Source of the DNA: the human T2T-CHM13v2.0 reference genome, Homo sapiens
DNA: 64,000 nucleotides
Assembly (NCBI RefSeq): GCF_009914755.1
Contig: NC_060927.1
Strand: one strand, 5' to 3'
The notes below the pieces were generated by a model. The model saw only the letters and a program-made list of their open reading frames with translations. It was not told the origin of the DNA and did no database searches. Below are positions 8,669 to 10,990 of this stretch, piece after piece (position 1 is the stretch's first letter; the number at the start of each line of letters is the position of its first letter). The position numbers and the translations under genes are program-made.

Positions 8669-9052
8669 CTACTCTGAAGCCTTTGTAGGGGCCTGGGTAC
8701 GTTTGGGAGCCTGAGCTGGAACTGAAGCTGGGGCTGCAGCCTGGGCCTTGGTTTGATCCTTGGCCTTGGCCTTGGCCTTGGCCTTGGCCTTTGGCCGGCA
8801 CAGCCTGAGCCCCTTGGCAATACGGGCACGAGCACGCTTCCCAAGCTTGGGGTGGGCAATGTAGGCAAGTCGATCGAGCTTGCGGCTGACACCCTTTGGG
8901 ATCTTGGGCTTAACCTCCTTGGGCTTTACGAGGGCCTTGATAGCCTCGGCACGTGCACTCATGGCCTTGGCATTGTTGGCCTGCATCTTCTTTAGGCCCT
9001 TTTTGTTGTGCTTCTTGGCAAAGCGCATGTTCCTCAGGAACTTGGGGTCCAC
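8669..9052 (-). CDS. RPL29: 60S ribosomal protein L29 (eL29), exon 4 ([14 protein letters not shown]...TKASE*)
   Basis: CTTTTCAG acceptor; eL29 signature DPKFLRN; TAG at 8669-8671. Confidence 0.98.
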
Positions 9053-9967
9053 CTGAAAAGCAGGAAAGGTACAGGTGGCAGCATGTGGGTCCCCAAGTCT
9101 CTCCCTGCTGCCCCTCTCCATAGGGGTACCCAGCATTCTAAAGACAGCATCAAGTCAACCTCAAATGTGGAAATACCCAACCTCTTGAAACTATTTCCAG
9201 AGAAAGTGTACCACCACCCCAGGGAGCCAATACGCCACCTGGGTAATGCTGTGCAGACCTCCTTCAAGAACAAAATTACAAGCTGCTTTGCTGCCCTGTC
9301 TGCCAAGGTTGTGGGGCTTCAACTTCCTACAGCAGGGGTTCGACCAAGTTTTTTCCTGACATCCCCTCAGGGACACCCCCTCCCCTCTTTAGAAGAAGGT
9401 GTCAATTAAATACCAAGTCTGGTCCAAAAGACTTATAGCCAAGGTGGGATATGGGGAAACTGAGGCTCAGAGTTTGTGATTCACTCCACGGAACAGAGAG
9501 CAAAAGTAAAGGGAAGGAACAGACTGGGGACATGCTCAGCTCTCCCCTAGACCCTCCAGCCTTCTCAGCTAATCCTTAGAACCCCCTGACACAGGAAGAG
9601 AAGCTGACCCCAACTCCAGCACTGGGTCAGATGGAGGTCATAAGGCTGGTCAGTGTGGGAATGTGCCCTGCACGCACTCAGACAAGGCCACTCCTTACCC
9701 TAAGTGCCACTGCCAAGCAAGGGAGATAGCCAAACTGCCCTCAGGAGGCAGGTTACACCCTGACCAGAGGGTTACACTTCAGGCTGTGGAGACCAAGGAA
9801 AGCTTTATTATGGGTCTGGTAGGGTAGAAAAAGGAATTGCAGGCTTTGGGTGGGCCAGTTAGGCTGTGCTCAGGCAGAAGCCAAAGCTAGAGAAAAACTA
9901 CATGAGAGGCCTTGACTGTGCACCTGGAACCAAGAAAAGACACTTCCATGTGATTCAGTGCACTCAC

Positions 9968-10032
9968 CCCCTTAAGAGATTCGTATCTTTGTGATCGGGG
10001 TTTCTTGATACCATTTCTGTGCCATTTTCGGG
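9968..10032 (-). CDS. RPL29: RPL29 exon 3 ([22 protein letters not shown])
   Basis: CAG acceptor, GTGAGT donor; eL29 motif [10 protein letters not shown]. Confidence 0.98.
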
Positions 10033-10350
10033 CTGTGGGAGAAAAAAAGGGAATTAAGCCAACAAAGAACTTTCCTCTAATAAGACCACCCAACATCACA
10101 GCTGGCAAGTCTGGGAGAACCAACACTTCCTACAGCAGCTACACTTGAGATATGGGAAACCCTTACTACTAAATGCAAAACACTCTGTATCTCAAGTAGA
10201 TCTCTAAACCTATAAACCCTAAAGTTATTACTGGGTGAAATCAATCAGCCTCAGGCCCACAATGGAAACGTGCCCCTTCATCTCTGTCCCAGTTTGCCTG
10301 AACCAGTCCTTGCCAGGGTCTGGGATGTAGGCAGGGCCCAAAAAACTTAC

Positions 10351-10387
10351 ACTGGTTGTGTGTGGTGTGGTTCTTGGACTTGGCCAT
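10351..10387 (-). CDS. RPL29: RPL29 exon 2 coding part (MAKSKNHTTHNQ); the exon spans 10351-10395
   Basis: GACATGG strong Kozak context; eL29 N-terminus; GTAAGT donor. Confidence 0.98.
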
Positions 10388-10679
10388 GTCTGCACCTGGA
10401 AGACAAAAGTGGAGATCAGGGTTAAGGGCTCGCCAGGCTGGGCCACCTCTGCCCCCCCCATTCTGGTCAGAATGAGCCTGCAGGCAGAGAATGTGCAGCC
10501 TCCACGAGTCTCGGCTTACTCTGCACGACCAAACGCCAGTCCTGGCCTCCCAAACCCAGGTAATGATGCCCTGAAATCAACTCCTTACCCCCGGAAAGCT
10601 GCATTCCCCAATAAAGTGGCTTTCCCTGCCATCCCCCTCCTAGGACCTAGAAGCACCATTCCCACCCCGCAGCTTTTGC

Positions 10680-10990
10680 TCCCGACAGACACACGGTCGG
10701 TCACCAGTCCTCTCCGCAGCCCGCGCCCCGCCGCCACCCGTAAGTCGCGGATGGCATCGGATGCCGCGCGGCCAACACTCACCATAAGCCGCGGCTCCCG
10801 AAGCGCCTAGAACCGGAAGAGAAAGGGGCTGCGGTGCAGCACGGGAAATAGGGTCAACAACGCCGGAAAGTACTACTGGAAAAGCTTCCCCAGGCTCCGC
10901 GAAGAAAAGTTCCGAAGCCCGGAAGAACGCAAGCCAGACGTGGAGGCGGTGCTACGAGCTTGCCTCCGCCCCCTTCAGGCTGCCTCCTCC
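10680..10990 (-). promoter_or_regulatory. RPL29: RPL29 CpG-island promoter
   Basis: High CpG density; ETS/GABP-type CCGGAA at 10813, 10863, 10919; GC box CTCCGCCCCC at ~10964. Confidence 0.85.
10783..10828 (-). other. RPL29: RPL29 exon 1 (5' UTR) starting in a TCT/5'-TOP pyrimidine tract
   Basis: CCCCTTTCTCTTCC (10815-10828 on -), typical of ribosomal protein gene starts; GTGAGT donor at 10782. Confidence 0.9.

What the first reader, a model, noticed from the sequence alone, without database searches (positions are those of the whole stretch)
9034..10785. Hidden 43-codon overlapping upstream ORF in RPL29, assembled by splicing and positioned to escape NMD
Seen: the last three bases of exon 1 are ATG (10785-10783). 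After splicing the mRNA reads GGCTT-ATG-GTGCAGAC-ATG-GCC, so this AUG lies 11 nt upstream of, and out of frame with, the eL29 start. Its frame stays open across all four exons (3+45+65+19 = 132 nt), giving [43 protein letters not shown] with TGA at 9036-9034. The six-frame track shows only fragments of it. Context is intermediate (C at -3, G at +4) against a strong main start (G at -3, G at +4). The stop is in the last exon. Established: an overlapping uORF prevents reinitiation at the main AUG; stops after the last junction avoid EJC-dependent NMD; uAUGs are uncommon in short 5'-TOP leaders; alt-RPL36 is a precedent for an alternative-frame product from an RP mRNA. Inference: eL29 is made by leaky scanning, so this AUG could tune eL29 output and yield a Ser/Thr/Pro-rich microprotein from a very abundant mRNA.
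Basis: partly seen in the sequence, partly recalled or inferred. Interest (0 to 1): 0.8.

Follow-up and report, generated by a model that had tools for sequence, protein, structure and literature searches.

The report
Young weak upstream ATG in RPL29
The RPL29 mRNA really does carry an out-of-frame upstream start codon opening a 43-codon overlapping reading frame, but it is a recent primate mutation in a very weak start context, is already in the public catalogue of ribosome-profiling ORFs, and shows no sign of making a selected protein.

Summary
Exon 1 ends in ATG (10785-10783). After splicing, this ATG opens a 43-codon frame that ends at TGA 9036-9034 in the last exon. It lies 11 nt upstream of the eL29 start and out of frame with it.

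It is not hidden. The same ATG and frame are GENCODE Ribo-seq ORF c3norep74, an 85-aa uoORF on an isoform with a longer exon 1. That entry has 0 MS studies, strongly negative PhyloCSF and a young "old world monkeys" age class.

Across 39 RPL29 retrocopy loci in this genome, the parent triplet went ACG, then AAG, then ATG. The ATG is therefore a recent change at position -2 of the splice donor.

The measured start-context efficiency is 34, against 106 for the main start, so the context is weak rather than intermediate.

The ORF length and the stop placement that avoids NMD follow automatically from the eL29 codons and the exon layout.

My reading: a young, leaky uAUG that taxes eL29 synthesis modestly and yields an unselected peptide. 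Low novelty.

The parts
10783..10785 (-). Upstream ATG, the last three bases of exon 1 (mRNA 37-39). It also forms positions -3 to -1 of the exon-1 splice donor (ATG|GTGAGT).
   Evidence: Same start as GENCODE Ribo-seq ORF c3norep74 after mapping hg38 coordinates to the window with offset 51985074.
10351..10395 (-). Exon 2. It carries codons 2-16 of the uoORF and the eL29 start ATG at 10387-10385.
9968..10032 (-). Exon 3. It carries the uoORF codons read in the +1 frame of eL29 (21 whole codons translated as P0001).
9034..9052 (-). First 19 nt of the last exon, holding the end of the uoORF. The TGA is at 9036-9034, made by the eL29 codons CTG AGG read one base on.
10807..10821 (-). Start of the mRNA: a C followed by a pyrimidine run (TOP-like). 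It includes the in-frame TAG (10809-10807) that closes the uoORF frame upstream.
   Evidence: In 22 of 29 retrocopies the alignment begins within mRNA positions 1-10, which supports this TSS.
10657..10782 (-). Part of intron 1 that becomes coding when exon 1 runs on to the alternative donor at 10657 (ATG|GTGCTT). Read from the same ATG, it gives the first 43 aa of the 85-aa catalogued ORF c3norep74.
   Evidence: (translation P0002), (catalogue row).
10704..10705 (-). A second alternative donor (CTG|GTGACC), seen joined to exon 2 in retrocopy L025. It keeps the same frame, giving a 69-aa ORF from the same ATG.

Best explanation
This is an evolutionarily young, constitutive, weak-context upstream AUG. 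A single A>T change at position -2 of the exon-1 splice donor (AAG|GTGAGT to ATG|GTGAGT) created it in the catarrhine or hominoid lineage.

Every canonical RPL29 mRNA carries it 36 nt from the cap. A minority of scanning 43S complexes start there and translate a 43-codon out-of-frame ORF, or 69 or 85 codons on isoforms with a longer exon 1. That ORF overlaps the eL29 start, so those ribosomes are lost to eL29. Most complexes leak past to the strong eL29 AUG 11 nt downstream.

The ORF's length, its Ser/Thr/Pro-rich sequence and its stop in the last exon are by-products of reading the hydrophilic eL29 N-terminal codons one base out of frame. The net effect is a small constitutive tax on eL29 synthesis and a short, probably disordered and short-lived peptide with no selected function.

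Shown here: the anatomy, the youth of the ATG, the weak measured context, the catalogue entry and the lack of peptide or coding-constraint evidence. Inferred: the fraction of ribosomes captured, the fate of the peptide and the absence of function.
For: Anatomy.

Catalogue: Sandmann 2023 Table S1 lists c3norep74 (RPL29, uoORF, 85 aa).

Age: 37 of 39 retrocopy loci cover the triplet.
- The least diverged copy, L002 (non-CpG K2P 0.005), has ATG.
- The next three (0.012-0.016) have AAG, as do 12 more of middle age.
- Older copies have ACG (4), ACA (3), C-G, ACC and ACT.
- The 6 very old copies with ATG carry G or T at -3, never today's C, as expected from CpG decay of an ACG inside the copies.

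Context: FACS-seq efficiency is 34 (31-37) for the upstream ATG context and 106 (98-114) for the main one, where 100 is the reference optimum.

Proximity: the inhibition caused by an out-of-frame uAUG shrinks as it nears the main AUG, and the two compete within about 17 nt (abstract; passage). Here the spacing is 11 nt.

By-product argument: one search shows that only 5 residue pairs of the eL29 N-terminus can create a stop in this frame, that the minimum ORF is 24 codons, and that P(43 codons or more) is 0.166.

No Pfam family matches.
Against: - Ribosome-profiling data were not looked at directly. The catalogue entry carries a 'norep' id, which I recall, but did not see defined here, to mean support from one study only. 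It is also annotated on the extended-exon isoform, so initiation at this ATG on the canonical mRNA is inferred from the identical -6..+6 context, not shown.
- The ATG has persisted for millions of years in a very highly expressed gene, which could reflect tolerance or use.
- My rough retrocopy clock places the AAG copies near or after the human-Old World monkey split, whereas the published class places the ORF in that ancestor. The substitution counts are too small (3-9 per copy) to settle this.
- Absence from MS is weak evidence for a 4.8-kDa peptide.
Confidence: 0.65

Rival explanations
1. The upstream AUG is functionally silent. With so weak a context and a strong AUG only 11 nt downstream, almost no ribosomes commit to it on the canonical mRNA. 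The catalogued Ribo-seq signal then reflects only the minor extended-exon isoform, or noise.
For: - The context efficiency of 34 lies near the bottom of the scale.
- Closely spaced AUGs compete, and the uAUG effect vanishes at short spacing.
- The catalogue id is of the 'norep' kind, with 0 MS studies.
- RPL29 is absent from the supplement files I could search for peptide-supported upstream regions.
Against: An efficiency of 34 is not zero. In the leaky-scanning model of Noderer 2014 (k = 0.86), my arithmetic gives up to about 0.3 capture for an isolated site. The leader before the ATG is 36 nt, long enough for recognition (recalled knowledge). One study did call translation from this ATG.
Confidence: 0.15
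2. The uAUG is a lineage-specific regulatory device. Because recognition of weak-context AUGs depends on start-codon stringency (eIF1/eIF5 levels, stress), it makes eL29 output respond to initiation conditions in catarrhines.
For: - It is constitutively present in the canonical leader.
- The overlap geometry forbids reinitiation.
- A weak uAUG paired with a strong main AUG is the arrangement in which stringency changes matter (recalled knowledge).
- It has been retained since its origin: both the parent gene and the young retrocopy L002 carry it.
Against: There are no data on condition-dependence. The site is young. The predicted effect size is small. A neutral origin from a splice-donor substitution explains everything seen.
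Confidence: 0.12
3. The 43-aa Ser/Thr/Pro-rich peptide is a functional microprotein co-encoded with eL29, in the manner of alt-RPL36.
For: - The mRNA is very abundant, so even leaky initiation could give many copies (inference).
- alt-RPL36 is a precedent for an alternative-frame protein from an RP mRNA.
- 19 of the 43 residues are S, T or P, a composition that could carry short linear motifs.
Against: - 0 MS studies and strongly negative PhyloCSF.
- The ATG is young and the frame pre-existed as a by-product.
- No Pfam family.
- Not found in the searchable supplements of three peptide-evidence papers.
Confidence: 0.05

Closest known systems
GENCODE Ribo-seq ORF c3norep74 (RPL29 uoORF, 85 aa), as listed in Table S1 of Sandmann et al. 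2023 (PMC10032668)
   Same: It has the same ATG (window 10785-10783), the same reading frame through exons 2-4 and the same TGA.
   Different: It is annotated on an isoform whose exon 1 continues 126 nt into intron 1, to a donor at 10657, which adds 42 residues. I did not see the 43-codon version on the canonical RefSeq transcript listed separately: the table holds only one RPL29 row.
alt-RPL36 (Cao et al. 2021, PMC7820019)
   Same: It is an alternative-frame ORF that starts upstream of, and overlaps, the coding sequence of a ribosomal-protein mRNA. Both proteins come from one mRNA, with a modest (~40%) cost to the RP on that transcript (passages).
   Different: - alt-RPL36 starts at GUG on a minor transcript variant and spans and outruns the whole RPL36 CDS.
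- It was found by tryptic peptides, has similar sequences in cat, cattle and monkey, and has a known partner (TMEM24).
- The RPL29 ORF starts at AUG on the main transcript, is 43 codons long and young, and has no peptide evidence.
uAUG-creating 5'UTR changes that make overlapping uORFs (for example the ENG variants, PMC10582052; search listing and abstract start only)
   Same: A single-base change creates an out-of-frame AUG whose ORF overlaps the main start, so the main protein depends on leaky scanning.
   Different: Those are rare pathogenic alleles with a large loss of protein. Here the change is present in the hg38-based catalogue row and in T2T-CHM13, sits in a very weak context 11 nt from a strong main AUG, and is evidently tolerated.

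Membership tests
Upstream overlapping ORF (uoORF, GENCODE/Sandmann definition) | The start codon lies in the 5' UTR, upstream of the annotated start. | tested here: met
   ATG at mRNA 37-39 against the main ATG at 48-50.
Upstream overlapping ORF (uoORF, GENCODE/Sandmann definition) | It partly overlaps the annotated CDS in another frame and stops downstream of the main start. | tested here: met
   The frame offset is 11 nt and the stop is at mRNA 166-168. The definition was read.
Upstream overlapping ORF (uoORF, GENCODE/Sandmann definition) | Ribosome-profiling evidence of translation. | not testable with these tools
   No Ribo-seq data are available here. The literature lists c3norep74 from the same ATG on a longer isoform. 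The source study was not seen because Mudge 2022 is not held.
Functional alt-protein of an RP gene (alt-RPL36 type) | The peptide is detected by mass spectrometry. | tested here: not met
   The 'Number of MS studies' column reads 0 for c3norep74. There were no hits in the searchable supplements of PMC12679747, PMC12391379 (12 of 14 files) or PMC11317171. These are look-ups, not an MS search.
Functional alt-protein of an RP gene (alt-RPL36 type) | The start and the alternative-frame sequence are conserved beyond what the host CDS imposes. | tested here: not met
   The start codon is absent from the parent at the time of 15 AAG-state and 10 AC-state (ACG, ACA, ACC, ACT, C-G) retrocopies. PhyloCSF is negative.
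NMD-immune uORF placement | The stop lies in the last exon, or less than about 50-55 nt upstream of the last exon junction (rule recalled). | tested here: met
   The stop is 17-19 nt into the last exon. All 20,000 synonymous recodings also satisfy the rule, so this carries no information about design.
5'-TOP mRNA | The transcript starts with C followed by an unbroken pyrimidine run. | tested here: met
   The annotated start reads C then TCTTCC. In 22 of 29 retrocopies the alignment begins within positions 1-10. The TOP definition is quoted.

The most novel reading that the evidence does not exclude
The AAG>ATG change gave catarrhine or hominoid primates a new start-stringency sensor in a TOP mRNA. 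The weak uAUG, 11 nt from the strong eL29 AUG, would divert a variable share of ribosomes depending on eIF1/eIF5 levels or stress. It would uncouple eL29 from the other ribosomal proteins and at the same time feed an abundant, unstable Ser/Thr/Pro-rich peptide into the cell, for example as an HLA ligand source.
Probability: 0.08. Interest if true: 0.5.

Novelty: already known. Interest (0 to 1): 0.2.

Why it matters
If the uAUG captured a sizeable share of ribosomes, it would be a primate-specific brake on one ribosomal protein and a prolific source of a non-canonical peptide. The evidence points instead to an ordinary case of a well-known class: young, unconstrained uoORFs born from a single point mutation.

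Two points from this check could be reused:
- Processed pseudogenes within one genome can order the ancestral states of a 5' leader. Here the order is G at -3 with ACG, then C at -3 with ACG, then AAG, then ATG.
- The 'NMD-escaping' placement of overlapping uORFs in ribosomal-protein genes, whose introns cluster near the 5' end, is automatic and should not be read as design.

Tried and rejected
1. In-frame N-terminal extension of eL29 through an alternative donor. In one search I placed the donor at 10704 by a one-base miscount and got a 191-aa in-frame product. The real GT donor follows 10705 and keeps the out-of-frame reading, giving 69 aa. Rejected.

2. Direct ACG>ATG CpG decay in the parent gene. 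Rejected in favour of an AAG intermediate, because 15 copies, including 3 of the 4 youngest, have AAG. ACG>ATG decay did happen inside old pseudogene copies.

3. An ancient ATG in the parent, suggested by 6 very old copies with ATG. Judged unlikely. Those copies carry G or T at -3, other old copies keep C at the middle base, and the published class is not 'primatomorpha'. It is not strictly excluded.

4. Literature searches:
- 'RPL29' with 'Ribo-seq ORF' gave 0 papers.
- 'RPL29' with 'OpenProt' gave 0.
- 'RPL29' with 'microprotein' gave 2, both irrelevant; one was read and uses RPL29-GFP as an export reporter.
- 'RPL29' with 'uORF' gave 24 papers, of which 20 were listed. None was about this ORF as far as the listing and one reading show.
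- A six-term uAUG/uoORF search listed 40 of 155 papers, none containing RPL29.

5. Papers not held: Mudge 2022, Chothani 2022, Chen 2020, Matsuda & Dreher 2006 and Yoshihama 2002.

6. The supplement of PMC10506109 held only one small file with no hit. Those files, and the Mudge table, may name the source study and any HLA peptides.

7. Earlier findings were not open.

8. An Rfam scan of 8300-11000 found 0 families. Pfam gave 0 families for the 43-aa peptide and for the intron-encoded 43 aa.

9. MFE folds of the first 80-120 nt gave -19 to -26.5 kcal/mol, without shuffled controls. I draw nothing from them.

Full report
**What is there**

- Exon 1 (10821-10783) ends in ATG, followed by the donor GTGAGT.
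- In the spliced mRNA this ATG is at positions 37-39. The eL29 ATG is at 48-50 (window 10387-10385).
- The upstream frame runs 43 codons across all four exons to TGA at 9036-9034, 17-19 nt into the last exon.
- The context bases (C at -3 and G at +4, against G at -3 and G at +4) are as stated.
- A TAG at mRNA 13-15 closes the frame upstream.

**Is it more than chance?**

No. An ATG turns up in 37% of mononucleotide and 17% of dinucleotide shuffles of the 47-nt leader.

The uoORF frame is the eL29 frame shifted by one base. A stop there needs a codon ending in TA or TG followed by a codon beginning with A or G. The eL29 N-terminus is so hydrophilic that only five residue pairs in the first 45 can ever make one.

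In 20,000 random synonymous recodings of eL29:
- the ORF was 43 codons or longer in 16.6% of cases;
- it was never shorter than 24 codons.

The earliest possible stop therefore lies about 41 nt before the last exon junction (mRNA 149/150). Under the 50-55-nt rule (recalled), any ORF from this ATG would avoid EJC-dependent NMD. The 'positioning' is automatic.

**Already catalogued**

Table S1 of Sandmann et al. 2023 (PMC10032668; supplement passages, header, methods passages) lists GENCODE Ribo-seq ORF c3norep74.
- It is an RPL29 uoORF of 85 aa.
- Its hg38 exon blocks map to the window with an offset of 51985074.
- It has the same ATG at 10785 and the same exons 2-4 and stop, but exon 1 continues to a donor at 10657.
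- Translating 10785-10657 reproduces its first 43 residues, and the script reproduces the whole 85 aa.

The row gives: conservation class 'old world monkeys - young', mode 'duplication', 0 MS studies, PhyloCSF -187.15 (primates) and -1822.74 (mammals). The table has only this one RPL29 row, so I did not see the 43-codon form on the canonical transcript listed. That 'norep' ids mark ORFs reported by a single study is my recollection; the paper that defines them (Mudge 2022) is not held.

**Age of the ATG from retrocopies**

The exon-4 coding part finds 41 other matches in the window's own genome. I read them as 39 loci (L002-L030, L031-L040). Their 5' ends align to the spliced mRNA.

Two loci do not cover the triplet: L013 is 5'-truncated and L025 has another first exon. 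The other 37 read as follows:

| State at the triplet | Copies |
|---|---|
| AAG | 15 |
| AAA | 1 |
| AGG | 1 |
| ACG | 4 |
| ACA | 3 |
| C-G | 1 |
| ACC | 1 |
| ACT | 1 |
| ATA | 2 (one alignment ambiguous) |
| ATG | 8 |

Ordered by non-CpG K2P distance to the parent:
- The closest copy, L002 (0.005), has ATG.
- The next three (0.012-0.016) have AAG, and AAG dominates up to about 0.067.
- The five most diverged copies of that set (0.076-0.157) have ACG, ACA or C-G.

A linked change runs in parallel. Older copies have G at -3 and younger ones have today's C.

Six of the eight ATG copies are very old (72-81% identity). They carry G (5 copies) or T (1 copy) at -3, as expected if they were copied from an ACG parent and lost the CpG afterwards. 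L021 (0.053, C at -3) fits the same reading. Only L002 looks like a copy of a parent that already had ATG.

The parent therefore went ACG, then AAG, then ATG. The last step turned a consensus donor AAG|GTGAGT into ATG|GTGAGT.

This agrees with the published 'young' class. On a rough clock, the AAG copies look no older than the human-Old World monkey split, which is in mild tension with that class. With 3-9 substitutions per copy, the tension cannot be resolved here.

**How strong is the upstream start?**

The FACS-seq dataset of Noderer et al. 2014 (PMC4299517; abstract, sections, data file search) gives:
- the exact -6..+5 context of the upstream ATG: 34 (31-37);
- the eL29 start: 106 (98-114);
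- scale: 100 is GCCACCAUGGG.

The passages suggest the file is sorted by efficiency. On that reading, the two values sit near part 137 and part 15 of about 141 parts, that is, roughly the lowest few percent and the top tenth. 'Intermediate' is therefore too generous.

With their constant k = 0.86, my arithmetic gives at most about 0.3 capture for such a site in isolation. The formula itself was not printed in the text I saw.

The two AUGs are 11 nt apart. Li et al. 2022 (PMC9743702, abstract only) report that closely spaced AUGs compete within about 17 nt, and that the inhibition by an out-of-frame uAUG shrinks as it nears the main AUG. A passage in PMC12415969 cites Matsuda & Dreher 2006 to the same effect. 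The real diversion is therefore probably smaller.

**The peptide**

- 43 aa, about 4.85 kDa, pI 6.7, GRAVY -1.25.
- 19 of 43 residues are S, T or P.
- No Pfam family.
- No peptide evidence in what I could search: 0 MS studies in Sandmann's table, and no RPL29, c3norep74 or peptide-fragment hit in the held supplements of PMC12679747 (that paper did not analyse uoORFs in depth), PMC12391379 (12 of 14 files) or PMC11317171 (that paper reports peptides for 16 uoORFs).
- Retrocopy L002 is identical to the mRNA over its first 310 nt and carries the same intact ORF, so a peptide alone would not be assignable to RPL29.

**Mechanism and verdict**

Shown:
- a constitutive out-of-frame uAUG 36 nt from a TOP-like cap-proximal start (22 of 29 retrocopy alignments begin within mRNA positions 1-10);
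- an overlap that forbids reinitiation at the eL29 AUG;
- a weak measured context;
- a young origin by one substitution in a splice donor;
- a catalogue call of translation from this ATG on a longer isoform;
- no constraint in the frame and no peptide evidence.

Inferred:
- a minority of ribosomes start there on the canonical mRNA too, because -6..+6 is identical in both isoforms;
- eL29 is made by leaky scanning at a small cost;
- the peptide is a short-lived by-product.

Compared with alt-RPL36 (PMC7820019, passages), it shares only the general layout. It lacks the peptide detection, the conservation and the known partner.

I rate it a real but ordinary and already catalogued uoORF. The more novel readings, a stringency sensor or a functional peptide, are not excluded but are unsupported.

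Noticed in passing
window 8442-8560 (minus strand); L002-L030: In 28 of 29 retrocopies the alignment ends at mRNA positions 647-660, about window 8548. 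That is 12 nt after an AATAAA at 8565-8560, whereas the RefSeq last exon is drawn on to 8442. The main poly(A) site used in the germline therefore seems to lie about 106 nt upstream of the annotated end.
   Followed up: partly
window 8669-9052 (minus strand), Lys-Ala repeat around 8770-8800: In this assembly the eL29 ORF is 161 aa. I recall 159 aa for the reference protein. The retrocopies differ from the parent mostly by gaps in this repeat: BLAST identity is 96.8% for L002 although its substitution distance is only 0.014. The repeat length looks unstable.
   Followed up: partly
L025 (G000:C12:120510339-120513693), and window 10705-10758: One old retrocopy (non-CpG K2P 0.051) starts inside what is now intron 1, at about 10758, and joins 10705 directly to exon 2. 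It is a fossil of a transcript with another start or donor, and it lacks the triplet in question. All three donors (10783, 10705, 10657) happen to keep the same reading frame from the upstream ATG.
   Followed up: partly
L002 (G000:C6:119182416-119185787), ORF at L002:1388-1519: This is the youngest processed pseudogene. It is identical to the RPL29 mRNA over its first 310 nt and carries an intact copy of the 43-codon ORF with its ATG. It would confound peptide or short-read assignment.
   Followed up: partly
L012, 5' flank; window 10822-10828: The flank of retrocopy L012 continues to match the pyrimidine run just upstream of the annotated TSS (CCCCTTTC). This suggests an alternative start a few bases upstream within the same TOP-like tract.
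   Followed up: no
window 10657-10660 (minus strand): The alternative donor used by the catalogued 85-aa ORF also has ATG as the last three exon bases (ATG|GTGCTT). This looks coincidental.
   Followed up: no
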